The notes beneath the pieces are model-generated. The model saw nothing but the letters and a program-made list of their open reading frames with translations. It searched no databases and was not told the DNA's origin. Source: Minisyncoccota bacterium (lineage in GTDB: Bacteria; Patescibacteriota; Minisyncoccia; Phycocordibacterales; UBA9973). From it: a stretch of 64,000 bases of DNA. The first letter of the stretch is position 1. Every line of letters starts with the position of its first letter. The stretch covers positions 124,029 to 188,028 of the forward strand of contig DASWWS010000002.1 in assembly GCA_036405895.1 (NCBI GenBank). Direction: 5' to 3'. Below are positions 36,636 through 59,019 of this stretch, one piece after another. A program made the position numbers and the translations under genes.

Positions 36636-38564
36636 CTATACGCCAAATCGCTTTCGAAAGAGCCCGGCGCGGGTCGAAAACGGCGCTGTTACCGTACTGG
36701 TTCCCTGCCCTACTACCGCTCCTGGGTCGGAGACAACTGCATAAAAAGTGCCATCCGGCAGGTTAAGATACGCCCGCCCATATACTGAGGAGAGTGCCTT
36801 TACTACCGGAGTATTAGTCTCCTTTTCAAAGACCGTGATAAGCTTCCCGTCAATCGGAAGCTCGGCGGCTTTTGAAAGGAACACGCTCGCATAAGACCCG
36901 AATACTCCCACCGCTCGAAAGAGAGCAACAAGAACATATCCGGCACACAGCAAGAGTGAAACAAGGCTTGGGAAGAAAATGACATGCAATACTGACGCCA
37001 ATAAGCCGATGCCGAAAATGAGAAAGGCTCCATTGGTAAGCGCCACCTCATGATAGAGCAAGAACTCTTTAAATGAAGTAATAACAGGAGCAATGGGCGC
37101 ACCGCCCTGCACTGGAACATCAAATGGCTGTACTGGCTGGTTACCTCGAATAAGGATTGGTTGGTCGCTATATATAGTGTTGTACAAAAGTGGCGCTGCT
37201 GTAGCAAAGCCTAAGGGCGCATTCTGTGCGTCAATGCGAAGCGTGTATGCGCCGTCCGGAACTGCTGCGCTAAACGACCCGTCGCTTTGCGTAATAGCCA
37301 CAACCGCAACCGCACCGTAAGAATTCGTAAGAGTTACGTGCGCAAGCGCGACCGGGCGATGTGTTGCACTGTCATAGACTATCCCCCACGGCTTGACCGC
37401 AGGAGTAATGCCAAGCACCACCAGCAGGTTCTGCCATAAAAGATACGGGAAAAGAAGAAGCTCTTCAGCACCTGCAACTGGTACAACAATAAACAATGCA
37501 AGCGCGAGGGCGATAACAATGATCAGTCCAGCGATAGCAAGAGTACGGAGAAGAGTTTGAACAAAGGGGTCAGCCATCAATTCCGCCAGTGCGCGGTTCA
37601 TTGCATCAAACAGTGTCTGTATCCATGCAATCACCATGCGCAAAAATTCGATGACACGATCACGCGCTTCGGGGAGCTCTATGGTAACAACATTCGTAAT
37701 CGTATCAATGACCGGTGTAATGATAGGGATGCCGGGGTCAGCAGGAGCTGGCTCCTCTATTTCACCGCCGCCTGGGGTAACAGCCCCCGGAGTACCGGGG
37801 GTACCGGGGTTTTGAGAGGGCGGGGTGACAGGAGTGCCCGGTTCTGTTGGCTCTGTAGGATCTATTGGGTAGACAGGGTCAGGATATTCACTGTTTCCTC
37901 CGTCAATACACTCGGGGTCCTCATCATCAACAAATCCATCATTGTCATCGTCAGCGCTGTTGCTGCACTGCGTTACGGTTCCCTCTGGCTGGTCTGGACG
38001 GTAGCGCACAGGACGGTAGTCAGTACGCAAACAGTCGGCTCGAACGGTACAGTTAAATTCGATCCAACCGTAATTCTCGCTCCATGCATACCCAATATCG
38101 CCTCCCACGCCCCTAAAGTATCCCGCTCCATCAATCTGCACTTGCGGTGCATCATTGTTTTCAAACGGACCAAAATTAATCCAGCCGGTATTTTCTCCCC
38201 ATGCAAAACCGTACAGTGTACCGTTTCGGTCAATATCCACTTCAAAGCGCCCGTTCTCATCATTACATCCGCTCGAAGTACTGTCACAGCTCATCACGAT
38301 ATAGCCTGCAATCACCCCCCATGCAAAACCGTACAAGCCGTCATCGGTGATATGGATGTTGTAGTCTTCGGCTGTCGAGAATTTTCCGAAGTTAATTCGG
38401 TCGTCAGTATTGCCGTTGCCCACGTCCGGTGGATTCAAAAAATGAACGAGATAGTTTCCGTCTTCATACGGATCAATCGTACCGTCGTCTACGGCTGCAT
38501 GTGCGCTTGCGCTAAAAAATAATCCGAGAAGGATTAGAAGGAGAGATGCAAGGCGCAATTTCAT
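36636..38564 (-). CDS. large multi-domain surface/membrane protein (WxxxGW repeats, Asp-rich Ca-binding-like module, Pro-rich linker, TM bundles, two CarboxypepD_reg-like domains)
   Basis: Signal MKLRLASLLLILLGLFFSASAHA (start at 38564, TATAAT-N6-ATG). Repeats YGFAWG..GWINF. CSNSADDDNDGFVDDEDPEC. VTLTN...SDGSFSAAVPDGAYTLRI. Confidence 0.75.
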   Translation of the reverse strand: MKLRLASLLLILLGLFFSASAHAAVDDGTIDPYEDGNYLVHFLNPPDVGNGNTDDRINFGKFSTAEDYNIHITDDGLYGFAWGVIAGYIVMSCDSTSSGCNDENGRFEVDIDRNGTLYGFAWGENTGWINFGPFENNDAPQVQIDGAGYFRGVGGDIGYAWSENYGWIEFNCTVRADCLRTDYRPVRYRPDQPEGTVTQCSNSADDDNDGFVDDEDPECIDGGNSEYPDPVYPIDPTEPTEPGTPVTPPSQNPGTPGTPGAVTPGGGEIEEPAPADPGIPIITPVIDTITNVVTIELPEARDRVIEFLRMVIAWIQTLFDAMNRALAELMADPFVQTLLRTLAIAGLIIVIALALALFIVVPVAGAEELLLFPYLLWQNLLVVLGITPAVKPWGIVYDSATHRPVALAHVTLTNSYGAVAVVAITQSDGSFSAAVPDGAYTLRIDAQNAPLGFATAAPLLYNTIYSDQPILIRGNQPVQPFDVPVQGGAPIAPVITSFKEFLLYHEVALTNGAFLIFGIGLLASVLHVIFFPSLVSLLLCAGYVLVALFRAVGVFGSYASVFLSKAAELPIDGKLITVFEKETNTPVVKALSSVYGRAYLNLPDGTFYAVVSDPGAVVGQGTSTVTAPFSTRAGLFRKRFGV

Positions 38565-38571
38565 AGAAGCA

Positions 38572-39195
38572 TTATAACGCAATGCCGGTAAGGAGTGAAT
38601 ACAACTTATACGCAAACGGTATTATTACGGTAAATTTGTATTCCAAAACAATAAGAAGAACAAGTGCGGGGAGACTGTATTGTTCGAGTACTCGCATTGT
38701 TGGGAGTGCGCGCCACGGCAACACCGATGAAAGAAATCGAAAGCCGTCCAGAGGTGCAAGTGGAATGCTATTGAAAATAGCAAGAACAATATTGATAATA
38801 ACAATGATGCTAAGAATTTCAATAACGGGAATAGAAACGTTGTGCGTTGCCATAAGTACACGAATCACTAAGCCGCACACGATTGCAACAGCAAAGTTTA
38901 CAGCGATGCCTGCAATAGCAACCCTTGCCTCGCTTTTTCTTCCATTCCGAAGATTCTCCGCTACATAGGGTACTGGCTTTGCCCAACCAACTACAAACCC
39001 GGTTGGTATTAAAAGAAGGGGTACCAATACAGATCCTACCCAATCAAGATGCTTTAACGGATTAAGGGTGATACGCCCCAGCATACGCGCCGTCGGGTCC
39101 CCTTCCCGCTCAGCAGCAAGCCCGTGCGCCACTTCATGCACAATGATGCTGGCGATTAAAATGAGGAAGTGAAAGACGGAAATTTGCCATGTCAT
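38572..39195 (-). CDS. M50 family (site-2 protease-like) membrane metalloprotease
   Basis: HEVAHGLAAE zinc motif and FNSIPLAPLDG. Start at ATG 39195 (TGTATACT-N6-ATG). Confidence 0.85.
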   Translation of the reverse strand: MTWQISVFHFLILIASIIVHEVAHGLAAEREGDPTARMLGRITLNPLKHLDWVGSVLVPLLLIPTGFVVGWAKPVPYVAENLRNGRKSEARVAIAGIAVNFAVAIVCGLVIRVLMATHNVSIPVIEILSIIVIINIVLAIFNSIPLAPLDGFRFLSSVLPWRALPTMRVLEQYSLPALVLLIVLEYKFTVIIPFAYKLYSLLTGIAL

Positions 39196-47679: not shown

Positions 47680-49434
47680 TTATACCTCTTTCCACGAATC
47701 AATATTCCATGATCCGCTCGGTCCGCTCGAAAAATTGAGGTTTGCAATTCCACTCTCATAGGTAACAGAGCTGCCTCCAGAAATACTAATGGCATAGCCC
47801 GTCACTTGTTTTGCAGTCACCCCTCCTGTAAGGCTAATAGTTCCGTTCTGGGCGACAAGGATAACCGCCCCTGATCCTCCGTCTTGGGTGATTGCATTGC
47901 TTGCAGTCGACTTCGAAACAAGCAGAATGTAGCTGCCTGTTGTACCGGAACCATTCGCCGTCCCGCCCCCCGAAAGAGCAATTCTACCGTTTACCAAGAC
48001 CGCATCGCTTGCTGTTCCATAGGCGCTCGAGAGCCGTATTGTTGAGCCTCCACTAATCGTCAGTGTCCCCGTTACCCAGAGCGTTCCGTCAAGTATTACT
48101 GTTGACCCACCCGTTACAGTAAGATTGCCAACAATTTTTCTCGGCCCCATATTGACCGTAGTCCCGCTTCCGACAGTAATATTTCCGGTAGTAGTTGTTC
48201 CGAGAACGGCTTTTTCTTCCCATGAAGCAATTGCATCTTCAGATACCGGCCACTCCCCTTCAGCATCAACCGCTCCAGTTGTCGTGCAGGCCTTATTGTT
48301 TCCAGTTCCGCTTTGGCAATGAATGGTTCCACCCACAATGGAATCGTTTACTGTGTACGCCCGCGCATCTCCACCAATGCCCCCTCCTTTTAAGTTATCA
48401 ATCAGTCCGGTGCTTCCCCCCATAAATACGCCAAAATATCCATCCAAACCGTTTGGCGTGGTTGCACTAAAGCTTCCGCCAAATACCCCGACCTTCGCCA
48501 TGCCATTTGCATAGGTGCTGTTTGTCGCACCAAGCGTATAGTACGAGCCATAGGTTGAGCTGGTATCAAGCACTATCCAATACGTGCTCCCTGCATTGAG
48601 TGTAGGAGCGGCTCCGAACGGAACAGAGATGTATGAATACCCGGTTCCTATGTCCTCATGGTCAAGCGTTGCAGAGGCAATTGTTGTTCCCGGATTTCCA
48701 CCACTATTTGCAGTGATGCGCACGGTGATATCTCCCATCCACGCCGCTGAACTTTTTTTAATATATAGCCGGACATTTGAAAGCGTATTGGATTCGGACA
48801 CCTGAAAACTCTGCGCCATGTCGTCGGTGTAGTTCGTCTGCCAGTCCACGCTCCCACCAAAGCGTATCTCTGCCGGAGGAACAGCAGCACCGTCATTTTG
48901 CTGGTTGGCAGTCGGGCTTGAAACAGTAGCGCTCACTGCAGTGCCGCTGATACTGTTTGAGCCGCTGTTGTTTGCGGTGATAGGGCCATTGGAATAGACG
49001 TTACCGACAATGCTCCCGCTCTGAAGCGATATGCCTCCGCGGCCCGCTTGCAGTCCGTATTGAAATGATGCACCCGCGCCCTGCGAAACGGTGACAGAAA
49101 CGCTTCGATTGCGGTCTTTTGCATCCCCCACAGAAGTAATCTGCTTTTCCGTAAGATTGACCGTTGTTACCGTAGTAGTTGTTTCAGCGGTACCTAAAAC
49201 AAGCGTCTCGCTTGCCGAAAGCTGCTTGCCGGTGCGCAGTCGGTACAACACATCCTCAACCCCGCTCTCGGCAATAAAATAGCTTTGCTTTGCCTGAAGC
49301 GAGTCTTCCGCGATGCGGTTTGCGTGCAGCGCCGGCACCACCAGCCCCAATGCAATAGAAAGAGAGAGTGCGACAAAGAGCACCATGGTGATAATCAGAA
49401 CGCTTCCTTGATTATACGAGTTTCTTTTTTTCAT
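47680..49434 (-). CDS. PilX-N-like minor pilin fused to a large beta-helix/Gly-Ser-Thr-rich domain (putative pilus tip/adhesin)
   Basis: N-terminal hydrophobic segment plus QAKQSYFIAESGVEDVLYRL (PilX_N pattern). C-terminal repeats such as TVTGGSTVILDGTLWVTGTLTISGGSTI. Confidence 0.7.
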   Translation of the reverse strand: MKKRNSYNQGSVLIITMVLFVALSLSIALGLVVPALHANRIAEDSLQAKQSYFIAESGVEDVLYRLRTGKQLSASETLVLGTAETTTTVTTVNLTEKQITSVGDAKDRNRSVSVTVSQGAGASFQYGLQAGRGGISLQSGSIVGNVYSNGPITANNSGSNSISGTAVSATVSSPTANQQNDGAAVPPAEIRFGGSVDWQTNYTDDMAQSFQVSESNTLSNVRLYIKKSSAAWMGDITVRITANSGGNPGTTIASATLDHEDIGTGYSYISVPFGAAPTLNAGSTYWIVLDTSSTYGSYYTLGATNSTYANGMAKVGVFGGSFSATTPNGLDGYFGVFMGGSTGLIDNLKGGGIGGDARAYTVNDSIVGGTIHCQSGTGNNKACTTTGAVDAEGEWPVSEDAIASWEEKAVLGTTTTGNITVGSGTTVNMGPRKIVGNLTVTGGSTVILDGTLWVTGTLTISGGSTIRLSSAYGTASDAVLVNGRIALSGGGTANGSGTTGSYILLVSKSTASNAITQDGGSGAVILVAQNGTISLTGGVTAKQVTGYAISISGGSSVTYESGIANLNFSSGPSGSWNIDSWKEV

Positions 49435-49435
49435 A

Positions 49436-49921
49436 CTACTGCGTACGCAACAAAGCGGTCGAATAAAATGACGCAGTCCTGATAACCCCTCCGGTTGCCG
49501 TAAGCGTAAGCTCCACCTTCACTCCTTCCCCAACTGGAGTGGTGATGCGGCGAAAGACCATATTCGTTACAGCTACCTGGCTGGTAGAAAGAATTCCTGT
49601 TGTACTGTTTTCCGTTATAGTAGCTGCGCCATTTGAAACAGCAAACGCAACCGTATCTCCCCCGCTTGCAAGCGTAAGTGTTCCAGGGTGAGTGCCAAAC
49701 GTACCCGTTGAAATGCTTTCGGCGTCGCGCACTTCGCGCGTAATGCGCTCAATGATAAGTTCGCCGTTGTTCTGAAGTCTTCGGAATCCTTGTGCGCTTG
49801 CGTACGTGCGCATCAACACCACCAATGAATGCACCAAAAGAACCGAAATCATGGCAAAAAGCGCGACATAGACCAATAGTTCGAGCAATGAATATCCTTT
49901 GTTTGTATTTTTTATTTTCAT
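49436..49921 (-). CDS. pseudopilin/minor pilin
   Basis: KGYSLLELLVYVALFAMISVLL is a prepilin-type N-terminus. Confidence 0.75.
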   Translation of the reverse strand: MKIKNTNKGYSLLELLVYVALFAMISVLLVHSLVVLMRTYASAQGFRRLQNNGELIIERITREVRDAESISTGTFGTHPGTLTLASGGDTVAFAVSNGAATITENSTTGILSTSQVAVTNMVFRRITTPVGEGVKVELTLTATGGVIRTASFYSTALLRTQ

Positions 49922-49922
49922 A

Positions 49923-50390
49923 CTATTGCCTAATGTTTGCTATATAAAATGCCAAACTTTTTGTTTGCAAGCCGGTTGATGCAGACCAGGAAACAGTTAC
50001 CGTCACAAGCTTTGTTCCCGAATCAGTTGTTCCGCTTGCCGCAATGTCGTCCGTTGCATTTCGGGAAACGTTCGTTACGACAATGCTTCTGGTAAAGCGG
50101 TCAATTACAACAGGAGTTGTGGTAAATACCCACGCGCTTCCATTGTATGACAAATAGTACGTCGTGCCCGGAGTAAGCGAGCTGATGCTGCTCCATGAGG
50201 TATCGCGAATCGCCTTTGTAGCTTCTGCCCCCTCTTCAAGAAGAAATGACGCTTGTGTTCGCTCAAGCGCACGCTGGGAGACTTCTACTGTGTTCTGTAT
50301 TGAACCAATCAATAAAATAAGCACCACCGCAATAACAGACGATGCGATAATCACTTCTATAAGAAAAAATCCGCGTTGTGAAGAATGCAT
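49923..50390 (-). CDS. pseudopilin/minor pilin
   Basis: QRGFFLIEVIIASSVIAVVL. Start at ATG 50390, 2 nt after the upstream stop. Confidence 0.7.
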   Translation of the reverse strand: MHSSQRGFFLIEVIIASSVIAVVLILLIGSIQNTVEVSQRALERTQASFLLEEGAEATKAIRDTSWSSISSLTPGTTYYLSYNGSAWVFTTTPVVIDRFTRSIVVTNVSRNATDDIAASGTTDSGTKLVTVTVSWSASTGLQTKSLAFYIANIRQ

Positions 50391-50391
50391 A

Positions 50392-50841
50392 TTAATTTCG
50401 TGCGACAGTACCAGTGGCGGTAACAGTGATAGTGCGGAGTGTCCCGCTTGGCAATTGCAATTGTAGTGTACCATGATGCGCAGTTGTTCCGCGCAGTCGG
50501 TCAAACGTTATTGTTGACCCCCCGCCGGAAAGAGCAACTGTTCCAAGCACTACAGGTGATTCGTATAAAAAGATTTGATTGGTGGGAGCTGCGCTTTGAT
50601 ATGTTGCCCCGCGAAACAAAATTGCGCGGTCGGCCTCCAGCCGAACGCTGTAGTTCGTGTTCTCGGTCCCCGCAAGCGTTTTTGCGCGCGCCTCATTGAT
50701 GACAGTAAGCACTGCATTGGTCGTATTTTGCAGCGCTTGCTCTCGTCTGAATCGAATAATCGGCAAAGATGCAATACCCATCAATACTCCAACAATAGTC
50801 AGGACAATCAAAAGCTCAATAATGGTAAACCCTTTTTTCAT
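50392..50841 (-). CDS. pseudopilin/minor pilin (GspH/FimT-like)
   Basis: MKKGFTIIELLIVLTIVGVLMGIA. Confidence 0.8.
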   Translation of the reverse strand: MKKGFTIIELLIVLTIVGVLMGIASLPIIRFRREQALQNTTNAVLTVINEARAKTLAGTENTNYSVRLEADRAILFRGATYQSAAPTNQIFLYESPVVLGTVALSGGGSTITFDRLRGTTAHHGTLQLQLPSGTLRTITVTATGTVARN

Positions 50842-50842
50842 A

Positions 50843-52048
50843 CTATTGAATACTGTCCATCAGTGAATACATAGGCGAAAGCATTGAAATGGCAAAAAAT
50901 CCCACCGCGCCTCCGATAAAGATCATCAGTACAGGCTCGATGATAGTAGAGAGATCCTTTGTCTTTGCATCAACCTCCGCTTCGTAAAATACCGCAATAT
51001 CGAGCAGCATGTTTGCAAGCTTCCCCGTCTCTTCTCCGACCGCTACCATTTCGCCAACCATCACCGGATAAAGATTGGTGTGTCGCTGAAGCACGCTCGA
51101 CATCGTTTCACCTTTTTCCACGCGCTCTTCAATTTCGGCAAGCACGCTCTTATAATAGCTGTTTTGCAGCACTTCTTTGGTGATGCCGATTGCGCGCGAA
51201 ATGCTCACTCCTGCAACCAAGAGAGATGAGAGCGTGCGGGCAGTACGGGCTGCATTCACCTCTTGTACCAATACGCCAACCACCGGCACGCGAGTGCTCA
51301 TATAGTCTGAAAACTTCTGCACTGCCGGGCGCTTAAACGCAAAGTAGCCTCCCACCACTATCACTGCAATGCCCAGGAGAAGAAATGCAATATGGTTTGA
51401 AATCATATCCGAAACCCATACCACAATGCGCGTTGAAGTCGGCAGGTCAACATTGAGTTCTTTGAATGTTTTTGTCAGTACTGGCACAACATAAATAAAC
51501 ATGAGTATTCCGATAATGAATATAGCGACAATAATAATCGCCGGGTACATGAGGGCACTTTTTATTTTTCGGTTGAGGTTGTAGCTTTTTTCAAGATTCC
51601 CGCCGACTTCCATTAATGCCTCAGGCAATCCTCCCGACTCTTCCCCTGCTTTCACCATTGCCACAAAAAGGCTGGAGAAAATAGCCGGGTACTTGGAAAG
51701 TCCCGCTGAAAAGGTCTCCCCATTGTCGATACTCGCAATCAGCGACTCAAGAATTGTTTTAAAATAATTGTTTGTTGTCTGTTTTTTCAATACAACAAGG
51801 GCTCGTGCAAGCGGAAGGCCCGCGCGAAGCATGCCGGCAAGGTTTTTTGTGAAAATGATTTTCTCGCTGAGTTTTACGCGCTTGAATATGCCGTCGAGCG
51901 TCAGCGTGCGCTTCTTTTTTTCTGTCACCGTAATCGGTGTAAGGCCGGTCTCGCGCAAGGTAATAATCGCTTCGGTCTTAGTAGGCTCCTCAATCACTCC
52001 CTCAACCAATGCTCCGGTTGTGTTTCGCGCCGTGTAGGTAAATAGCAT
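50843..52048 (-). CDS. pilC: type II secretion/type IV pilus platform protein (GspF/PilC family)
   Basis: Duplicated T2SSF domains and three TM segments, 401 aa. Confidence 0.92.
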   Translation of the reverse strand: MLFTYTARNTTGALVEGVIEEPTKTEAIITLRETGLTPITVTEKKKRTLTLDGIFKRVKLSEKIIFTKNLAGMLRAGLPLARALVVLKKQTTNNYFKTILESLIASIDNGETFSAGLSKYPAIFSSLFVAMVKAGEESGGLPEALMEVGGNLEKSYNLNRKIKSALMYPAIIIVAIFIIGILMFIYVVPVLTKTFKELNVDLPTSTRIVVWVSDMISNHIAFLLLGIAVIVVGGYFAFKRPAVQKFSDYMSTRVPVVGVLVQEVNAARTARTLSSLLVAGVSISRAIGITKEVLQNSYYKSVLAEIEERVEKGETMSSVLQRHTNLYPVMVGEMVAVGEETGKLANMLLDIAVFYEAEVDAKTKDLSTIIEPVLMIFIGGAVGFFAISMLSPMYSLMDSIQ

Positions 52049-52116
52049 AGGATAAGTGTAACAGATTTATAATAAAAAAAGCGCTCCCCTGGGGAGCGCA
52101 AAGTGCAAAAAAATAA

Positions 52117-52548
52117 TTATTTGAAGAGTGTTCGATACTTTGTCGGACTGGTTTCGTTTTCAAGCTCAAGCGAGGTTGCTGTCAAAGTGATAATTCCGTA
52201 CGTAATGGTGCTATTAGAAGCTTTCAGTACAATTTTAGTATCGTTTGCAGTCGGCTCCCAGGTGCCATTAAAACTTCCGCTTCCTCCAAATTCAACATAG
52301 GAAAATGTTTTGTCGGACTTAAAGGTGTAGGTATCCTTTTTTTCTTCCACGGACAGAGGGTCGTTAACACGAGTGCCGGAAACAATTTGCGTCGCAGAAA
52401 CAGGTGTCCACGTTTTTACCAAGAGCAGTGCTTTTGCACTAAGGCCGGGTTGTTCTGTTTTCGGAGTAGGGTTGTCTTTTTTGCAAGAAACAAAAGAAGA
52501 ACTGATAATCATTACCAATCCCGCTAAATAGAGAGAAATCTTTTTCAT
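52117..52548 (-). CDS. lipoprotein (lipocalin-like beta-rich) between pilB and pilC
   Basis: Lipobox SSFVSC. AT-rich. Own promoter (TTGACA...TAGTAT) and terminator GCGCTCCCC/GGGGAGCGC (52081-52099). Confidence 0.65.
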   Translation of the reverse strand: MKKISLYLAGLVMIISSSFVSCKKDNPTPKTEQPGLSAKALLLVKTWTPVSATQIVSGTRVNDPLSVEEKKDTYTFKSDKTFSYVEFGGSGSFNGTWEPTANDTKIVLKASNSTITYGIITLTATSLELENETSPTKYRTLFK

Positions 52549-52627
52549 TGTTTTTATTTTTATGTGAAAGATAAGTGATTTTCAATACTATGCACCCTAT
52601 GCAATATTTTGTCAACCCTTTGGAGCA

Positions 52628-54373
52628 CTATTCGCTGACAACTCGCAATACGTCATCAATGGTTGTTTTTCCTTGAGCAGCCTGGAAAATGCCATCTTCA
52701 AGCATTGTCATCATCCCCTCTTTTTTTGCTTGTGCTTCCACTTCGTCCGCGGTGCCATTGCGTAAAATAATTTCCTTGATTGTCGGCGTGATTTTCATTA
52801 CCTCATGAATGCCGATACGGCCCTTGTATCCGTCTTCGCTTTCTTCTGAGGCCTTTGGTTTATAAAAGGGAATCTTCTCCCATGGCATACCCTTTTCAAT
52901 TATGTGCTCAGCTTCCAAAAACTTTCTCATTCGATCAAGGTCAAGCGAGTGCCCGAGCGTTGAAACTTCCACTGCGGTAAGAAAATATGTTTCTTTAGCA
53001 GCAGTCAGACGGCGCACCAAGCGCTGTGCCAAAATGGCTTTTGCGGTCGAAACGATAAGAAACGGCTCAACGCCCATATCAATCAATCGAGGGATAGCGC
53101 CAGCGGCTGAGCTTGTGTGGATAGTGGAGAGCACCAAGTGCCCGGTAAGGGCCGCATTCACTGCCAAGTCTGCAGTTTCGCCATCGCGCACCTCTCCAAC
53201 CATGATGATGTTGGGGTCTTGTCGCAAAAGCGCACGCAAGCCGTTGGCAAAGGTCATACCGATGTCAGACTTTACTTGCGTTTGATTGATGCGCGGCATC
53301 TGATACTCGATCGGGTCTTCAACGGTTGAGATGTTTACCTCCGGCGTATTTAAAATATCGAGCAATGTATAGAGCGTAGTAGTTTTTCCGCTTCCAGTCG
53401 GCCCTGACGCCAAGATAATGCCTGAGTGCTGGCGAAGTGCTTCGTGGATTGCTTCGAGCCCGCTTCCATGAAAGCCTAAGCCTTCAAGCGTAAAGCCGTG
53501 CGTGCTTTCGCGCAAAATACGGACTACTGCCTTTTCGCCATAGTATGTTGGAATGGTCGAGACACGAAACGATACGGGCGTCTCATCAAGCACCATTTTA
53601 AAGCGCCCATCCTGCGGCAAGCGCTTCTCGTCGAGCTTAAGACTCGAGAGCACTTTGATTCGCGCCGTAATTGCCGGAGCTGCACCCTTTGGCAAAGTCA
53701 TTGCGTCATGAAGAATGCCATCGATACGGTAGCGGATTATCATTTCATTTTCTCCGGGCTCCATGTGGATGTCAGACGCGCCCTGCATGATAGCGTGCGA
53801 AATCAATGAGTCCACAATCTTGATTACCGGCAAGTCTTCAGCAAGGGCCTTGAGGTCTCCCACTGATGCGTCCGCATTCACTTGCGGAACATTCTTCAGC
53901 GACAATGCTTCAGTTTGAATAATAGAGTCGAACTCTGCTTGGAGGCTCTTTCGATACTGCTGGAGCACGGCTTTGATAGTTTCGGTATCTGTCAGGCGCG
54001 GCAAGATGCGGAGCTGCGTCTTTTTTTTGATAAAGTCGATAGCGGGCAAGTTATCGATGTCGAGCATTGCAACCTCCAAATCGCTTCCCGACTTTTTATA
54101 CGCAACAATATTGTAGCGGCGCGCGATTGATTCAGGAATCAGCGCAAGCGTGTCCGGGTCGAGACGCTCTTTTGTCAGCCCAATAAATGGAATACCCAAT
54201 ACATATGCCTCTAATCGCTTGATCTCGCTTTCTTTCACTTTTCCCGCATTCAAAAGGAAGTCTGAAAGCGACTGATCTTTATTTTCTCGAGCATCGTAGG
54301 ATTCAATGTCGGCAAGAGATGCGATATTTGCATCAAGTACAAGATTGCGGAGTTTTATTTGATCGATCACCAT
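52628..54373 (-). CDS. pilB: type IV pilus/T2SS assembly ATPase (GspE/PilB family)
   Basis: Walker A GPTGSGKTT, Asp box, Walker B, His box, N-terminal T2SSE_N domain, 581 aa. Confidence 0.95.
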   Translation of the reverse strand: MVIDQIKLRNLVLDANIASLADIESYDARENKDQSLSDFLLNAGKVKESEIKRLEAYVLGIPFIGLTKERLDPDTLALIPESIARRYNIVAYKKSGSDLEVAMLDIDNLPAIDFIKKKTQLRILPRLTDTETIKAVLQQYRKSLQAEFDSIIQTEALSLKNVPQVNADASVGDLKALAEDLPVIKIVDSLISHAIMQGASDIHMEPGENEMIIRYRIDGILHDAMTLPKGAAPAITARIKVLSSLKLDEKRLPQDGRFKMVLDETPVSFRVSTIPTYYGEKAVVRILRESTHGFTLEGLGFHGSGLEAIHEALRQHSGIILASGPTGSGKTTTLYTLLDILNTPEVNISTVEDPIEYQMPRINQTQVKSDIGMTFANGLRALLRQDPNIIMVGEVRDGETADLAVNAALTGHLVLSTIHTSSAAGAIPRLIDMGVEPFLIVSTAKAILAQRLVRRLTAAKETYFLTAVEVSTLGHSLDLDRMRKFLEAEHIIEKGMPWEKIPFYKPKASEESEDGYKGRIGIHEVMKITPTIKEIILRNGTADEVEAQAKKEGMMTMLEDGIFQAAQGKTTIDDVLRVVSE

Positions 54374-54470
54374 TGCTTGTAGTATAGCAACAACACTGCA
54401 AGTATGCGCAATAAAAAAACCACTTCCGTGTTGAAAGTGGTTTTTTTATTTTTTCTACAATGCCCGCAAA

Positions 54471-55667
54471 TTATGGATTAAGAGTAATGTCGATAATAGT
54501 GGCACTTCTGTCGATATAGTAGTCAAAATTTGCTTTTATACCTCCAAAAAGTCCTCCACGCCATGACATACCGTACAAGTATGCATAGAGGTCAACTGTG
54601 TCTCCCGGCTGAAGTACTATCGTTTTTTCAAAGCTGAAATTATACGGAACATCTCCAAATGACTTCCATTTATTCACCTGACTCAAAGAATATTGTGCGT
54701 AGAAATAATTATCCACTGGAACATCTTCGCCTGGTTGGTTGTTCCAGATATCGTAAAATCCTGATCCTACTGGAGCGAGAGGGTAATGGTCATTGTTGAT
54801 TTTTACAAAGAAATTTGTATTTCCAAATGCTATCGCACTGTTATACCTATTCTTAAGCCCCATAGAACCTCTTGCACTGATTTTGATCGAGTATGTTCCT
54901 GCCTCTTGAACTGTTAAGAGACGTCCCTTGTCGAGAGCAAACTCTGTTTTACTGATACCAGGAAGAGTATCAATAATAACACCCTCAGGCCTACTGTTAT
55001 CAATACCTATTTTGCCAATATAAGGAACAGTAACAAATTTCTGTGTCCATGCATGGTTAGGGCTTGGTCCATCTATTTCAACCCACTGTCGAAGAGTAGG
55101 GAAGGTAAAATCTTGACGCTTATATGATGGAGCTACTGAATAGAAACGCTTGAGAGTAGGGGCGTTACAAGTGCCGTCTGAAGAACGGGTATGACCCTGC
55201 GGGATAGTATACTGGTGCCCAGAAATGTTTGAACACAAGTCATCAGTACACAAACCAATAACTCCGCTACCATCCGCACATAATCGCGAGTTATCCGGAT
55301 TGGCGACAAATTGATTTTGTATATAATCTGCTGCTGCAAGATTACCACTGATAGCCGCATCGGTCACAGTACTCATAGGAACACTACCGAGCTGAAGGGT
55401 GCTTGTAGTATCAAGAGGGGTTCCTCCTCGTACTGTCCCCCGAAGCGAAAGGTCTTGCTCGAATGAAGCGTTTTGCGAAACAATAAAATTATTAACAGAG
55501 AGTCCTCCTGTCTTTATTTGAGCTGGGCCCACATGGATTGGTATACCCGTATTGCTTCCATAGGGAATGCTTGCGGGTGCTGTCCACTGAGCAAGAGTAC
55601 TTGCAGCAAATGCGAGCGTTAGACCGAAAGCGATATATTTAAGGTTGGTGAGGAGTGTTTTTTTCAT
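54471..55667 (-). CDS. secreted protein P1, unknown family (shared N-terminal module plus unique C-terminal beta domain)
   Basis: Sec signal MKKTLLTNLKYIAFG (DNA-identical to P2). QIKTGGLSV...RGG.P module, LCADGSGVIGLC knot, LCSNISGHQYTIPQGH repeat. Confidence 0.75.
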   Translation of the reverse strand: MKKTLLTNLKYIAFGLTLAFAASTLAQWTAPASIPYGSNTGIPIHVGPAQIKTGGLSVNNFIVSQNASFEQDLSLRGTVRGGTPLDTTSTLQLGSVPMSTVTDAAISGNLAAADYIQNQFVANPDNSRLCADGSGVIGLCTDDLCSNISGHQYTIPQGHTRSSDGTCNAPTLKRFYSVAPSYKRQDFTFPTLRQWVEIDGPSPNHAWTQKFVTVPYIGKIGIDNSRPEGVIIDTLPGISKTEFALDKGRLLTVQEAGTYSIKISARGSMGLKNRYNSAIAFGNTNFFVKINNDHYPLAPVGSGFYDIWNNQPGEDVPVDNYFYAQYSLSQVNKWKSFGDVPYNFSFEKTIVLQPGDTVDLYAYLYGMSWRGGLFGGIKANFDYYIDRSATIIDITLNP

Positions 55668-55671
55668 ATAA

Positions 55672-56445
55672 TTAACAGTTCAATTCAATAATGTAAGCAT
55701 CTCCTGGATTAAGATAAAAGTCTGTTGCACCACCTGGCAAAGGAACAGGAGACCATCCTGGCAAGCAACTAATGTCAGACGAGGTGATGTTATAGCTGCC
55801 CGGGTCCACTTGATATACATCCGACATACCCATATTGGTTCCTAACGGTAATTCGATAGTATACATATTCGCATTATCACTGTTGCGAATAACTACATTA
55901 GTTCCAACCTGCATTGATCCGTTAACATACAGTCTCACAACCGTTTCAACAGTAGCAACAGGAGGGGGCGGAGGAGGTATTACGGTTACAGTTGAATCAC
56001 ATAATACAAGTGTTCCCGATTCATCAGCGCAAACACCCGCATTTATAGGGTTGGCTAGTTGAGCGCTTTGTACTGTATATACAGTGTTGGCGACTCCCCC
56101 AGAAATAGCAACATGCGCCATTGCGCCATCTGCACCAAATTCCACCGTTCCCCGCTGCTCAGTAGGATTACCCCCTCGAAGTGCTCCAGTAAAAAATGAT
56201 TGACCATCAATCTGTGCGTCTGCCATCGCCATAAACCATCCACCCAAGGAAAGTGAACCCTCCTTGATCTGGTCAGCACTACCGCTCGTAATTACAGTCG
56301 GCGCATTATTGTTAGGGAACGAAGCGCTTGGTCCTGTATAAGAATTGGAAGGTGTCCCCCAACTTGCGTGGGCATAGCTTGCAAGTGTCGCCAAAACAAT
56401 GCCGAAAGCGATATATTTAAGGTTGGTGAGGAGTGTTTTTTTCAT
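55672..56445 (-). CDS. secreted protein P2, paralog of P1 (N-terminus) and P3 (C-terminus)
   Basis: Same signal as P1. VCADESGTLVLC, poly-Pro linker, and a C-terminal domain ...GTNVVIRNS.NANMY.IELP...SSDISCLP.WSPVPLPG...LNC shared with P3. Confidence 0.75.
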   Translation of the reverse strand: MKKTLLTNLKYIAFGIVLATLASYAHASWGTPSNSYTGPSASFPNNNAPTVITSGSADQIKEGSLSLGGWFMAMADAQIDGQSFFTGALRGGNPTEQRGTVEFGADGAMAHVAISGGVANTVYTVQSAQLANPINAGVCADESGTLVLCDSTVTVIPPPPPPVATVETVVRLYVNGSMQVGTNVVIRNSDNANMYTIELPLGTNMGMSDVYQVDPGSYNITSSDISCLPGWSPVPLPGGATDFYLNPGDAYIIELNC

Positions 56446-56449
56446 ATAA

Positions 56450-57187
56450 TTAACAGTTCAAGGTAATAATAACGTGCTCTCCTTCATTAAGGACAAAGTC
56501 TGTTGCAGCACCGGGCAAAGGAACAGGAGACCATGTCGGCAAGCAACTAATGTCAGACGAGGTGATGTTATAGCTGCCCGGGTCGACACGATATGGATTT
56601 GACATACCCATATTGCTTCCTATTGGAAGCTCGATGTTGTACATATTCGCATTATTACTGTTGCGAATAACTACATTAGTTCCCACCTGGTTTGTATTGT
56701 CGACATAAAGACTGACTTGGCCATATGGAGTTTGAGAGGGTGGTGGTACTGCCGGAGGTTGGGGCGCCTGATCTCCGCAAAGAAAGAATGTTCCGTCTTG
56801 ATTTGCGCATACCGGCTTTTTTCCTCCCCCTGAAGCGAGCGAGTTTGATTGTATTGTCCCTTTTGTACTGATAGAACCGTTGATCAGTGCGTTTACTTTA
56901 TAACTTGAGTCTCCAACAGCAACAGTACTAGTGCCGTTTCCTTGTATGTTACCCCCCGTTATCACTCCTTTAACAAAAGTGTCCTGACTGAAAAGTGCGC
57001 TTCCGCGACCATAAAATGTCCCAACAGAAAGTCCTCCTGTCTTATCTTGATTAATTGCCGTGATATTAAGCGGTGCGTCAGTATTTGCACCAAATGCACC
57101 AGTTGTCGGAGGGGTATATGCAGAAACCACTCCTGCAACACCGAGCAAGATTCCAAGTGCAATAAGGCGATAGTAGGTGGTTTTCAT
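56450..57187 (-). CDS. secreted protein P3, paralog of P2
   Basis: Signal MKTTYYRLIALGILLGVAGVVSA (start at ATG 57187). DKTGGLSV module, VCANQDGTFFLC. The C-terminal domain is nearly identical to P2 over about 85 aa. Confidence 0.75.
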   Translation of the reverse strand: MKTTYYRLIALGILLGVAGVVSAYTPPTTGAFGANTDAPLNITAINQDKTGGLSVGTFYGRGSALFSQDTFVKGVITGGNIQGNGTSTVAVGDSSYKVNALINGSISTKGTIQSNSLASGGGKKPVCANQDGTFFLCGDQAPQPPAVPPPSQTPYGQVSLYVDNTNQVGTNVVIRNSNNANMYNIELPIGSNMGMSNPYRVDPGSYNITSSDISCLPTWSPVPLPGAATDFVLNEGEHVIITLNC

Positions 57188-57188
57188 A

Positions 57189-57521
57189 TTACTGGTTAAA
57201 ACTGTTAAGCATTTGTAATCGATCACTTGAAGTTGTCGTTGTCGGCGTAGAAGTAGATCCAAGAAGTTGTCCTTGTGCATACGTGTTCTGTACGTCTTCA
57301 TTTACGGGAAGAGAAGATTCTCTCAACCGCTCGAGGACACCTTCCGGGGTCTTCTCTTTTTGCTTTGCAATAAAATACCATACCCCCAAAAGAATCAACA
57401 CAATAACCAAAATAATAGCAATCATGGTGCGCTGTTTTTTCTGGTCGTAATCACTGGGAACACCGTGCTCTTCAAGAACGCGAGGGTTATAGTTATTGTT
57501 TTGTGCAACAGATGTGGGCAT
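57189..57521 (-). CDS. single-pass membrane protein
   Basis: Central TM helix IAIILVIVLILLGVWYFI and a Thr-rich tail. Its stop abuts the P3 start. Confidence 0.6.
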   Translation of the reverse strand: MPTSVAQNNNYNPRVLEEHGVPSDYDQKKQRTMIAIILVIVLILLGVWYFIAKQKEKTPEGVLERLRESSLPVNEDVQNTYAQGQLLGSTSTPTTTTSSDRLQMLNSFNQ

Positions 57522-57534
57522 GATGATAAATATA

Positions 57535-59019
57535 CTAGAATTCTATGAATATTGGCTTCTTTTTCTCGATTGCAACTGTAGCCGCCGCTTCGCTTCCACA
57601 TTGTACCGTGACAGAGGTTATTGCGGGAGGAACTATAATGTCGCTCATTATGCTCCATATACCACTGTTGCCTTGCTGCACCAGGTTTACAGTACGAGTG
57701 CTCGCACCCCATGTAATATTACAACTTGCGCCTGCACCGATGCGAGAAATGATAATTCGCTGTCGACTTCCTGGGGTGGTACCAACCGGACAAGCAGAGA
57801 GGCCGCCAGCCGGAATAGGAGAACCATCAGGACAGTATGGATCATGGGCAACTCCATCACATCCCGTACAATTTGGACCAGGATCAGGAAGAACAGTAAT
57901 GGTTGTTTTTACACACATTCCTCCTTCGAGAATATAGCCGGTAGGAATCGTCTGTTGTGCACCGTCGATATTAGGACACATATCGTCTTGAACACAATTA
58001 GCACCTGATGCCGTGTATCCGTACGGGATGGTTGTCTGCGTACCGTCTATGTTTGCACACATATCAGGCGGTGTTATTTCACAACTAAAGCTTGTACTCA
58101 CCGCATCTGAGAAAAATGGTGCAGTTGCAGGACTTCGGGAGTGCGCCCATGCACCATAGCTCGCTCCTGGAATGCCGGCGGTAGTATAGCTCGTTGCGGC
58201 CCCTTCCCAACAGCTGTCTCCTGGATTATTACAAGGACCTGCACCTTCTTCCCATCCGTTTGCAAGATTATTAACACGGAAACTGTACCAATCGGCACCC
58301 GATACTGGAGCAACTGTTACAGTAATTTGATCTCCTGGAGCTGGACATGATGCAGTAATAGCAGGCACCGGAGGGCGGCACTGGAATGAAGGGTCAACAG
58401 TGGGCGCTCCCTGTGACCACACAGTCCCAGCCGGACAAGAGACACTTCCTACAGATCCATTCACACTTGTCCACCCTATCACTTCAGACCCCCATAGAGA
58501 GCCAGTGAGTGTGCGTGTCCCACCACTATCGGGCCCCAGTGTAAGGCCGTACCCGCTTCCCGAAAGGGAAAGAAAGCCATCCCAGTCTCCCAAATAAGCA
58601 TTATTTGCCAAGGCACCACTACACCCTGAAGCAAAAACAGAACAAGCGCGAGCCCATCCTTTTATTCCATATGATCCGTCAGGACCTGGATATGCCAAGT
58701 CTACATAGGCGCCTTGCGTGCAGCCACTCGTCGGACATCCAGCCGGAGAAAAAGTGATCCATCCGATATTTGAAGACCACGCGGTCCCTGAAATAGCTCC
58801 ACTTGCCGGATCAACAGAAACGCCATAGTCAGAACCGGTACAGGAGGAGGTATTGGTTGGGTCAGTACAGTTATTGAGCGATATCCACCCGATATTTGAA
58901 GACCACATATTCCCACTTGCATTGCTATTGGTACCAGCGCGCAATGATGATGCAGCAAAGAGCGCAAGAGTGGTCATAGTGGCGAGAGCGATGAGAAGTA
59001 CTTTGGTGCGAGTCTTCAT
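57535..59019 (-). CDS. secreted Cys-rich repeat protein P4 (WSSNIGWI repeats and C-x-N-I-D-G-x-Q-x-T-I-P-x-G-Y repeats)
   Basis: Signal MKTRTKVLLIALATMTTLALFAA (start at ATG 59019). Promoter TTGCAC-18-TATACT. Repeats MWSSNIGWISL, AWSSNIGWITF, DMCANIDGTQTTIPYGY, DMCPNIDGAQQTIPTGY. Confidence 0.75.
   Translation of the reverse strand: MKTRTKVLLIALATMTTLALFAASSLRAGTNSNASGNMWSSNIGWISLNNCTDPTNTSSCTGSDYGVSVDPASGAISGTAWSSNIGWITFSPAGCPTSGCTQGAYVDLAYPGPDGSYGIKGWARACSVFASGCSGALANNAYLGDWDGFLSLSGSGYGLTLGPDSGGTRTLTGSLWGSEVIGWTSVNGSVGSVSCPAGTVWSQGAPTVDPSFQCRPPVPAITASCPAPGDQITVTVAPVSGADWYSFRVNNLANGWEEGAGPCNNPGDSCWEGAATSYTTAGIPGASYGAWAHSRSPATAPFFSDAVSTSFSCEITPPDMCANIDGTQTTIPYGYTASGANCVQDDMCPNIDGAQQTIPTGYILEGGMCVKTTITVLPDPGPNCTGCDGVAHDPYCPDGSPIPAGGLSACPVGTTPGSRQRIIISRIGAGASCNITWGASTRTVNLVQQGNSGIWSIMSDIIVPPAITSVTVQCGSEAAATVAIEKKKPIFIEF

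What the first reader, a model, noticed from the sequence alone, without database searches (positions are those of the whole stretch)
54471..59019. Five-gene operon of modular secreted Cys-knot/repeat proteins upstream of pilB, with recent paralog exchange
P4 (57535-59019), a single-pass membrane protein (57189-57521), P3, P2 and P1 are packed with gaps of 13 nt or less, or overlaps, and share one terminator (54420-54440). P1, P2 and P3 share a mature N-terminal module. It reads: after the signal W/Y-T-x-P, then Q/D-x-K-x-G-(G/S)-L-S-(V/L), then G-x-(I/V/L)-(R/T)-G-G-x-(P/I), then a (L/V)-C-A-(D/N)-x-x-G-x-x-x-L-C knot. P1 and P2 have DNA-identical signal-peptide regions (55620-55667 versus 56398-56445). 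P2 and P3 share a near-identical ~85-aa C-terminal domain ending ...LNC (about 55675-55940 versus 56453-56720). P1 and P4 share the C-x-N-I-x-G-x-Q-x-T-I-P-x-G-(Y/H) repeat. This mosaic pattern implies module shuffling within the operon. None of the domains matches a family I can name. Position and secretion signals suggest a surface fibre, adhesin or cell-contact apparatus working with the pilus.
Basis: partly seen in the sequence, partly recalled or inferred. Interest (0 to 1): 0.6.

Follow-up and report, generated by a model that had tools for sequence, protein, structure and literature searches.

The report
Patescibacterial surface-fibre cassette with swappable tips
Five tightly packed genes next to the type IV pilus genes of an ultra-small (Patescibacteria/CPR) bacterium encode an uncharacterised, widely conserved set of secreted proteins that most likely form cell-surface fibres whose outer tips are exchanged between genes and lineages, which makes them candidates for recognising host cells.

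Summary
On the minus strand, 54471-59019 carries five genes with gaps of 13 nt or less: P4, a 110-aa single-pass membrane protein, P3, P2 and P1. A strong terminator hairpin follows them. The window comes from a Candidatus Paceibacterota MAG.

- **N-module.** P1-P3 share a ~115-aa module directly after the signal peptide. It defines a large unnamed family (1317 cluster representatives), almost all in Patescibacteria. It has no Pfam, NCBIfam, PHROG or PDB sequence match.
- **Conserved trio.** P4-type, membrane-protein and N-module genes occur together in most related loci. pilB-pilC follows directly in about half of them. In others the trio sits at the same NusA/TIM-PGK site with no pil genes.
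- **Folds.** The P1 model has an extended stalk and a C1q/TNF-like head, the fold found at the tips of trimeric fibres. The P4 model has a soluble 8-stranded beta-barrel and Ig-like domains, and the protein ends in a conserved P-[IV]-[FY]-x-E-x motif.
- **Exchange.** The two "paralog exchanges" are one ~315-nt tract across a gene junction. Tip domains and N-modules have discordant relationships between genomes, so tips do move.

Corrections: the "Cys-knot" is a single disulfide hairpin, and cooperation with the pilus is plausible but unproven.

Best reading: a Sec-exported modular fibre/adhesin system, a new variant of a known kind.

The parts
57535..59019 (-). P4, 494 aa, secreted multidomain protein with 22 Cys. 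Signal peptide 58936-59019. Conserved N-terminal 8-stranded beta-barrel built from G-x-A-W-S-S-N-I-G-W-I-x-F repeats, 58444-58935. Ig/FN3-like middle, 58081-58443. Two Cys-bounded C-x-N-I-x-G-x-Q-x-T-I-P repeats, 57916-58080. C-terminal beta domain, 57565-57915. Terminal motif KKKPIFIEF, 57538-57564.
57189..57521 (-). Small single-pass membrane protein, 110 aa. TM helix 57369-57425. Conserved extracytoplasmic motifs TP-E-L--L---S-PV and a C-terminal (D/E)(R/K)L--L-SL.
   Evidence: Homologues sit beside P4-type genes in L001, L003, L005-L009, L011, L012, L016, L018, L020, L022 and L034. No family match.
56450..57187 (-). P3 (slot 1), 245 aa. Signal peptide 57119-57187. N-module 56771-57118. Pro-rich linker plus ~85-aa Cys-terminated tip domain, 56453-56770.
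55672..56445 (-). P2 (slot 2), 257 aa. Signal peptide 56365-56445. N-module 55993-56364. Pro-rich linker plus the same tip type as P3, 55675-55992.
54471..55667 (-). P1 (slot 3), 398 aa. Signal peptide 55590-55667. N-module 55242-55589. One Cys-bounded C-x-N-I-x-G-x-Q repeat, 55164-55241. C1q/TNF-like jelly-roll head, 54474-55163.
55624..55938 (-). Copy A of the duplicated tract: P2 tip domain, stop codon, 4-nt spacer and the first 44 nt of P1.
   Evidence: Repeat families D1 and D2 have identical 778-nt spacing. Base-by-base alignment.
56402..56716 (-). Copy B of the duplicated tract: P3 tip domain, stop codon, 4-nt spacer and the first 44 nt of P2.
54410..54450 (-). Intrinsic-terminator-like hairpin between P1 and pilB. 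It is symmetrical, with A-run and T-run flanks.
   Evidence: inverted repeat I1. (-22.9 kcal/mol, z = -6.0).
47680..54373 (-). Adjacent type IV pilus block, which is context and not shown to be part of the cassette. pilB 52628-54373. Lipocalin-like lipoprotein 52117-52548. pilC 50843-52048. Three N_methyl pilins in 49436-50841. Large pilin-like protein 47680-49434.
   Evidence: Pfam labels of the orthologues.

Best explanation
The five genes encode a Sec-exported cell-surface fibre or adhesin system specific to Patescibacteria. It is built from three protein families that have no characterised homologue.

**Fibre proteins (P1, P2, P3).** Each has a signal peptide followed by a conserved ~115-aa N-module that ends in a disulfide-stapled hairpin. 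A short Pro-rich or Cys-bounded linker follows, and then a variable distal tip. The P1 tip is a C1q/TNF-like head, which by analogy is trimeric. P2 and P3 carry a small Cys-terminated beta domain.

**Inferred assembly.** The conserved N-module is inferred to be the attachment and/or oligomerisation end. It would hold the fibres on the cell through P4 and the small membrane protein, while the variable tips point outward and bind ligands on other cells.

**Tip exchange.** Tips are exchanged by recombination at the module boundary, both within the operon and between lineages.

**Relation to the pilus.** The cassette is often, but not obligatorily, placed directly upstream of pilB-pilC-pilins. The two surface systems therefore probably act in the same process, contact with a host cell, without being one machine.

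**Shown:** gene structure, family membership, conservation of the trio, the fold of the P1 head and of the P4 barrel, and the tip-exchange pattern.

**Inferred:** signal-peptide cleavage, trimerisation, which component anchors which, and the binding function.
For: **The N-module family**
- An exhaustive profile search finds 1317 cluster representatives at E <= 1e-3 and 255 at E <= 1e-10. In the listed hits the module almost always begins about 20-40 residues from the N-terminus, directly after a hydrophobic leader.
- Of 152 representatives, 26 are module-only, 121 have C-terminal extensions of more than 60 aa, and 24 carry the P1-type head.
- Almost none of these extensions match a Pfam family.

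**Conserved trio**
- P4-type, TM and N-module genes are adjacent in most related loci, in lineages with GC from 0.31 to 0.57.

**Structure**
- Full-length Foldseek hits are viral collagen/C1q, peptidase S74 and tail-fibre proteins at E = 1e-7 to 1e-5.
- The N-module is modelled with pLDDT 70-86 but has no intrachain secondary structure. This is what a chain taken out of an intertwined fibre looks like.
- P1-P4 have even cysteine counts, and their Gly+Ala+Ser+Thr content is 33-45% against 25% for the TM protein.
- A divergent relative (L033 9250-10479) continues from the first part of the N-module into segments with motifs I recognise from phage tail fibres, such as DAATKGYVD (the motif recognition is my own knowledge).

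**Tip exchange**
- N-modules group by gene slot across genomes: 58-76%, 49-67% and 48-60% identity within slots against 30-48% (mostly below 43%) between slots.
- The W_P2 tip is 85% identical to that of L003 slot 2, although their N-modules are only 49% identical. It is 41% identical to the L001 slot-2 tip, whose N-module is 67% identical.
- The W_P3 tip is 72% identical to the W_P2 tip but only 40% identical to the tip of its own slot orthologue in L001.
- L003 slot 1 carries a P1-type tip instead.

**Recent conversion in this lineage**
- Sixty consecutive nucleotides spanning the gene junction are identical here. The same codons carry 7-8 differences, which leave the MKKTLLTNLKYIAFG peptide almost unchanged, in L001 and L003.
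Against: - There is no experimental or multimer evidence for trimerisation or for any interaction among P4, the TM protein and the N-module.
- The N-module fold is effectively unknown. The single-chain model cannot distinguish an intertwined stalk from a poorly modelled compact domain.
- Module-only proteins (~140 aa) have no tip, so they cannot be adhesins in the same sense.
- P4 is conserved at both ends, which does not fit a simple "anchored N-terminus, exposed C-terminus" picture.
- The Foldseek viral hits have low TM-scores (0.2-0.3) and large rmsd, so they show resemblance of architecture, not homology.
- The P2/P3 tip fold was not modelled.
- Patescibacterial taxonomy is known for only 27 genome loci, not for the 1317 representatives.
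Confidence: 0.55

Rival explanations
1. The proteins are non-canonical accessory or tip components of the adjacent type IV pilus. One example would be an adhesin/priming complex that the PilB-PilC machine loads onto the pilus, as with PilY1 and the minor pilins.
For: - The cassette lies directly upstream of pilB-pilC-pilins in the window, L001, L003, L005, L016, L022, L026, L027 and the P0164 contig. A P4-type gene with a divergent N-module gene does the same in L033.
- These loci span lineages with GC 0.37-0.47 (not computed for L033 or the P0164 contig) and N-module identities around 30%.
- Conserved N-terminus with variable C-terminus is also how pilins are built.
- The leader MKKTLLTNLKYIAFG is unusually conserved.
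Against: - There is no class III signal (G|F-x-x-x-E). Pfam N_methyl matches only the downstream pilins and none of P1-P4.
- The leaders end in A-x-A-like signal peptidase I sites.
- A strong terminator separates P1 from pilB.
- In L006, L010, L012 and L034 the cassette sits between NusA and TIM-PGK with the whole pil block absent. L014, L018, L020, L024, L025, L029 and L031 also lack pilB in the downstream flank.
Confidence: 0.2
2. The genes encode general envelope or S-layer-type structural proteins of the Patescibacteria cell surface and have no role in recognition. The variable domains would simply drift or evade phages.
For: - The chromosomal position is conserved among housekeeping genes: NusA, pyrophosphatase, trigger factor, TIM and PGK.
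- The proteins are secreted, Cys-rich and GAST-rich.
- The family is widespread.
Against: - C1q/TNF-like heads are ligand-binding modules rather than lattice formers. So, by general knowledge, are the PKD, CARDB, laminin-G, TSP1 and chitin-binding domains fused to P4 homologues.
- The proteins are small, and 1-3 paralogues with exchanged tips resemble receptor-binding repertoires.
- No S-layer family matches.
Confidence: 0.12
3. The cassette is a domesticated or remnant phage tail-fibre module, or a polymorphic-toxin-like delivery system with exchangeable C-terminal effectors.
For: - There is fold and architecture resemblance to phage fibre proteins.
- The C-terminal swapping pattern is present.
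- Hint or PT-HINT domains occur in 3-4 of 150 family members.
Against: - tblastn of P1 and P4 finds no match in 50,697 phage records, and there are no PHROG matches.
- No phage genes lie nearby, and the locus is stable in the chromosome across lineages.
- No toxin or immunity domains are detectable in P1-P3, and the downstream genes are paralogues, not immunity genes.
Confidence: 0.08

Closest known systems
Mosaic adhesive trimer (MAT) fibre proteins of Bdellovibrio bacteriovorus (PMC10769870)
   Same: - A signal peptide is followed at once by a conserved N-terminal domain of about 130 aa that has no PDB homologue.
- C-terminal tips are variable and include TNF/C1q-like domains.
- Tip swapping among paralogues was inferred there too.
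- The organism lives on other bacteria.
- The authors raised a possible interplay with type IV pili.
   Different: - MATs are about 1000 aa with long beta-helix or beta-prism shafts, and many end in an S74 chaperone-protease. The proteins here are 140-630 aa, have no long shaft, and show no S74 hit in 150 members.
- Homology of the two N-terminal domains was not tested.
- MATs are scattered in the genome, not in a cassette with P4-type and TM partners.
C1q/TNF-headed fibres: gC1q proteins, Bacillus BclA and the F-BclA tip fibrillum of endospore appendages, viral collagen-like C1q proteins
   Different: - The stalk has no Gly-X-Y collagen repeats (directly visible in the sequence).
- There are no Pfam C1q, TNF or collagen hits.
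- Sequence identity to the hits is 8-17%.
Phage tail fibres and receptor-binding proteins
   Same: - A conserved N-terminal attachment part is joined to an exchangeable C-terminal receptor-binding part, with recombination at the junction.
- There are fold-level hits to fibre tips.
- A divergent relative shows tail-fibre-like sequence motifs.
   Different: - The locus is a stable chromosomal one among housekeeping genes.
- The proteins have Sec signal peptides.
- No sequence similarity to any phage record or PHROG was found.
Type IV pilins and minor pilins
   Same: They share genetic neighbourhood with pilB/pilC, and the design of a conserved N-terminus with a variable C-terminus ending in a disulfide-bonded element.
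   Different: There is no prepilin (class III) leader or N-methylation motif. The linkage to pil genes is not obligatory.

Membership tests
C1q/TNF superfamily (P1 C-terminal head) | Compact jelly-roll beta-sandwich with gC1q/TNF topology | tested here: met
C1q/TNF superfamily (P1 C-terminal head) | Sequence membership (Pfam C1q or TNF models) | tested here: not met
   P1 has no Pfam, NCBIfam or PDB sequence hit.
C1q/TNF superfamily (P1 C-terminal head) | Homo- or heterotrimeric assembly | not testable with these tools
   Only single-chain prediction was available.
Collagen-like fibre proteins (BclA, C1q) | Gly-X-Y triple-helix repeats in the stalk | tested here: not met
   The N-module sequence has no GXY periodicity, and there is no Collagen Pfam hit.
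Type IV pilins / pseudopilins | Class III leader with G|F-x-x-x-E and the N_methyl motif | tested here: not met
   N_methyl matches only 50392-50841, 49923-50504 and 49436-49921. P1-P4 have no hit. Their leaders end in A-x-A-like sites.
Type IV pilins / pseudopilins | Obligatory linkage to pilB/pilC | tested here: not met
   pilB lies directly downstream in 10 of about 21 informative loci. The cassette is present without it in L006, L010, L012, L034 and others.
Bdellovibrio MAT fibres | Signal peptide followed directly by a conserved N-terminal domain, with variable C-terminal tips that include TNF-like ones | tested here: met
   compared with the description in PMC10769870.
Bdellovibrio MAT fibres | Sequence or fold homology of the N-terminal domain to the MAT N-domain | not tested
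   No MAT sequence or model was available, and the AFDB library was offline.
Bdellovibrio MAT fibres | Long beta-helix/beta-prism shaft, with an S74 chaperone-protease in many members | tested here: not met
   The proteins are 140-630 aa, and none of 150 members has a Peptidase_S74 hit.
Phage tail fibres | Phage genomic context or sequence similarity to phage proteins | tested here: not met
   No PHROG hit below E = 0.1. tblastn of P1 and P4 against 50,697 phage records finds nothing. The neighbours are NusA, PPase, pil genes, TIM and PGK.
   The N-module has only two Cys (C-x9-C), and the model shows a beta-hairpin.
Sortase-dependent (LPXTG) surface proteins or pilins | C-terminal LPXTG motif, hydrophobic segment and basic tail | tested here: not met
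   The C-termini read ...ITLNP...ELNC...TLNC and ...KKKPIFIEF.
Outer-membrane 8-stranded beta-barrels (OmpA/NspA-like), considered for the P4 N-domain | Lipid-facing hydrophobic belt on the strands | tested here: not met

The most novel reading that the evidence does not exclude
The trio of P4-type barrel protein, small membrane protein and N-module fibre proteins is a previously undescribed surface apparatus found across Patescibacteria. It is assembled through the Sec pathway. It would be the primary host-recognition device of these epibionts, with host range set by horizontally exchanged tips. It would be functionally coupled to type IV pili, with the fibres choosing the target and the pili pulling the cell in.
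Probability: 0.3. Interest if true: 0.8.

Novelty: new variant of a known kind. Interest (0 to 1): 0.6.

Why it matters
Patescibacteria make up a large share of bacterial diversity. All cultivated members live attached to other microbes, yet apart from type IV pili the molecules that recognise the host are largely unknown (PMC11623550; PMC10849945).

This analysis defines three unnamed protein families that travel together across the group. One has more than 1300 cluster representatives. It shows that one paralogue ends in a C1q/TNF-type binding head, and it gives sequence evidence that the tips are swapped between genes and lineages.

That yields concrete candidates for experiments:
- tagging or deleting the genes in cultivable Saccharibacteria or relatives;
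- glycan arrays with recombinant tips;
- using tip types as a genomic marker for predicting host range in metagenomes.

Tried and rejected
- **Family libraries.** Pfam, NCBIfam and PHROG scans of P1-P4 and the TM protein gave nothing significant. PDB sequence searches with the N-module, full-family and P4 profiles also gave nothing.
- **Word-indexed search.** A search with the N-module profile found only 2 extra proteins. The exhaustive HMM search was needed to reveal the family.
- **Genome scan.** A narrower one worked.
- **AFDB.** The AFDB Foldseek library was unavailable, so the N-module and P4 barrel could not be compared with predicted structures, including Bdellovibrio MATs.
- **Diversity-generating retroelement.** I considered this for the 239-nt repeat. 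It is rejected because the mismatches are not adenine-specific.
- **Membrane-embedded P4 barrel.** Rejected because the strands are polar.
- **TM protein as PilN/PilO.** No support.
- **Intermolecular cross-linking by the C-terminal Cys of P2/P3.** Not favoured, because each protein has an even number of Cys.
- **Literature.** Searches found no description of this cassette. The FESNov paper mentions only that unknown transmembrane families lie near pilB/pilC/pilM in Patescibacteria.

Full report
**What is there**

The window is from a Candidatus Paceibacterota MAG. The public names of the identical proteins P0001, P0008 and P0157 say so.

Five genes lie head to tail on the minus strand:
- P4, 57535-59019, 494 aa
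- a 110-aa single-pass membrane protein, 57189-57521
- P3, 56450-57187, 245 aa
- P2, 55672-56445, 257 aa
- P1, 54471-55667, 398 aa

The gaps between them are 13, 1, 4 and 4 nt. A perfect 16-nt inverted repeat at 54410-54450 follows P1. It folds at -22.9 kcal/mol (z = -6.0) and is followed by a U-run.

Downstream lie pilB, a lipocalin-like lipoprotein, pilC, three N_methyl pilins and a 584-aa pilin-like protein, then TIM and PGK. NusA lies upstream and is transcribed divergently.

The shared N-terminal module of P1-P3 is real. The C-x-N-I-x-G-x-Q-x-T-I-P repeat shared by P1 and P4 is real too.

The two "exchanges" are one event in geometric terms. The repeat families D1 (239 nt, 84%) and D2 (69 nt, 96%) have the same 778-nt spacing. 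Base-by-base alignment shows a single tract, 55624-55938 vs 56402-56716. It covers a tip domain, the stop codon, the 4-nt spacer and the first 44 nt of the next gene.

In L001 and L003 the corresponding P1 and P2 starts encode almost the same peptide but differ at 7-8 positions in the first 45 nt. The 60-nt block of perfect identity in the window is therefore recent homogenisation, not just constraint.

The "Cys-knot" is a two-cysteine C-x9-C hairpin. These are the only invariant columns in 150 family members. The model places two short strands there.

**The N-module is a large unnamed family**

No Pfam, NCBIfam, PHROG or PDB sequence match exists for P1-P4. P1 has only six full-length homologues.

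An exhaustive profile search with the N-module finds 1317 cluster representatives at E <= 1e-3 and 255 at E <= 1e-10. In the listed hits the module almost always starts about 20-40 residues in, directly after a hydrophobic leader.

Among 152 representatives:
- 26 are the module alone (~140 aa).
- 121 have C-terminal extensions of more than 60 aa.
- 24 carry the P1-type head.
- 51 of the 121 extended proteins have a Cys in their last three residues.

Pfam recognises almost nothing in these extensions. A few have Hint domains.

A pattern scan of one genome per GTDB species returned 27 confirmed loci:
- 21 are labelled Nomura-, Paceibacter-, Sacchari-, Taylor-, Kaiser-, Parcu- or Patescibacteria.
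- 4 are unclassified.
- 2 are labelled Alphaproteobacteria.

**A conserved three-family cassette**

HMM and phmmer scans of the ORFs of all fetched loci show that N-module genes are nearly always adjacent to a P4-type gene. A homologue of the small membrane protein is usually there as well.

The gene order is either P4-TM-Nmod(x1-3) or TM-P4-Nmod. This holds in loci with GC content from 0.31 to 0.57.

*P4 family.* P4 homologues number more than 459 in the word-indexed search. They share only the first ~190 residues. After that come different adhesion-type domains: PKD, CARDB, laminin-G, TSP1 and chitin-binding. 81 of 120 end in P-[IV]-[FY]-x-E-x-COOH.

*TM family.* It has one helix and conserved motifs on its C-terminal side.

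**Linkage to the pilus genes**

pilB-pilC-pilins follow the cassette directly in the window, L001, L003, L005, L016, L022, L026, L027 and the contig of P0164. In L033 they follow a P4-type gene and a divergent N-module gene.

In L006, L010, L012 and L034 the cassette sits in the same place, with NusA on one side and TIM-PGK on the other, and the entire pil block is missing. Seven further loci also have no pilB in several kb of downstream flank.

The association is far above chance and spans deep lineages, but it is not obligatory. In the window a terminator separates the two units.

**Structures**

*P1.* The AF2 model used a 150-sequence alignment and has mean pLDDT 77.
- An N-terminal helix spans residues 2-24.
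- Residues 25-128 have pLDDT mostly 70-86 but no DSSP secondary structure.
- The disulfide hairpin follows.
- The rest is a beta-sandwich.

Foldseek against viral models aligns nearly the whole chain with collagen-repeat/C1q proteins, peptidase S74 proteins and tail fibres, at E = 1e-7 to 1e-5. The TM-scores are low, so this is only a resemblance of architecture.

**Tips move**

| Comparison | N-module identity | Tip identity |
|---|---|---|
| Slot 1 orthologues across genomes | 58-76% | n/a |
| Slot 2 orthologues across genomes | 49-67% | n/a |
| Slot 3 orthologues across genomes | 48-60% | n/a |
| Between slots | 30-48% (mostly below 43%) | n/a |
| W_P2 vs L003 slot 2 | 49% | 85% |
| W_P2 vs L001 slot 2 | 67% | 41% |
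| W_P3 vs W_P2 | 39% | 72% |
| W_P3 vs L001 slot 1 (its own slot orthologue) | 76% | 40% |

The three paralogue classes therefore predate the divergence of these genomes. Tips do not follow the N-modules. In addition, L003 slot 1 carries a P1-type tip. The switch falls just after the C-x9-C hairpin, at a Pro-rich linker.

**Interpretation**

The best-supported reading is a Sec-exported modular fibre/adhesin system. A conserved N-terminal part attaches and/or oligomerises the proteins at the cell surface, and exchangeable distal parts bind ligands.

The closest functional analogue in the literature is the MAT fibre family of Bdellovibrio. It has a conserved ~130-aa domain directly after the signal peptide, variable tips including TNF-like ones, tip swapping and a lifestyle on other bacteria. 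Phage receptor-binding proteins and C1q/BclA-type fibres share the same logic.

Membership in any of these families is not established:
- There are no collagen repeats, no S74 domain and no long shaft.
- There is no sequence similarity to phage proteins.
- Homology to the MAT N-domain could not be tested.

Which partner anchors which, whether the leader is cleaved, and whether the fibres are trimers all remain inferences.

**Rivals**

- *Non-canonical pilus component.* It is kept alive by the frequent adjacency to pilB and by the oddly conserved leader. It is weakened by the absence of a prepilin signal, by the terminator, and by cassettes that have no neighbouring pil genes.
- *Purely structural envelope role.* It fits the housekeeping neighbourhood but not the ligand-binding folds or the tip exchange.
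- *Phage remnant or polymorphic toxin.* The evidence for it is thin.

**Verdict**

The system is uncharacterised and widely conserved in a group whose host-recognition molecules are largely unknown. Its general design is already known from predatory bacteria and phages. I rate it a new variant of a known kind, with interest about 0.6.

Noticed in passing
window 36636-38615 (-): A 659-aa protein carries partial copies of the P4-type GW-repeat barrel domain (profile E = 1e-16). It also has an acidic double-disulfide repeat, a Pro-rich linker and a polytopic membrane region with a CarboxypepD_reg domain. It may be a membrane-anchored relative of the P4 N-domain.
   Followed up: partly
window 55590-55667 and 56365-56445; L001, L003, L005: The leader MKKTLLTNLKYIAFG of the slot-2 and slot-3 proteins is conserved across genomes whose mature N-modules are only 30-50% identical. 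53 of 152 family representatives have N-phi-K-phi-phi in their first 22 residues. This is unusual for an ordinary Sec signal peptide and is unexplained.
   Followed up: partly
window 57538-57564; P0157-P0276: The P4 family has a conserved extreme C-terminus, P-[IV]-[FY]-x-E-x-COOH, in 81 of 120 members. Distant members have LPxW+E[VI]xPF followed by an amphipathic tail. No known sorting signal that I can name matches it.
   Followed up: partly
window 52117-52548 (-): A lipocalin-like lipoprotein (Pfam Lipocalin_4) lies between pilB and pilC. The equivalent small gene lies between the P1-like gene and pilB in L001, and between pilB and pilC in L003.
   Followed up: no
L001 5902-6789 and 1-933: A relative has a second protein (295 aa) with two thrombospondin type-1 repeats. 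It shares with P4 the C-x-N-L-x-G-x-Q repeat, the C-terminal domain and the ending KKKPIFTEF, but it lacks the P4 N-terminal barrel domain. A reverse-transcriptase (RVT_1) gene lies at the edge of the locus.
   Followed up: no
L018 (964-kb contig) and L031: Two hits are in MAGs labelled Alphaproteobacteria and Hyphomicrobium, with GC 0.54 and 0.59. L018 has a complete TM-P4-Nmod cassette. L031 has a lone N-module gene among unrelated genes. The cause could be misbinning, mislabelling or horizontal transfer; this was not resolved.
   Followed up: partly
N-module family members in alignment A3: Three or four of 150 members have Hint, Vint or PT-HINT domains, and four have DUF4215, in their C-terminal extensions. 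This hints that some tips are autoprocessed.
   Followed up: no
window 47680-49434 (-): The large pilin-like protein at the end of the pilus block contains a choice-of-anchor R domain (NCBIfam NF041539, E = 2.7e-11). Its N-terminus is hydrophobic but has no clear prepilin motif.
   Followed up: no
L033 9250-10479: In a Campbellbacteria MAG the gene between the P4-type gene and pilB starts like the N-module (AAWTEPS...NPPVNVGSGSQVKSGD). It then continues into tail-fibre-like sequence, including DAATKGYVD. The N-module HMM misses it, so the family is wider than the 1317 representatives.
   Followed up: partly
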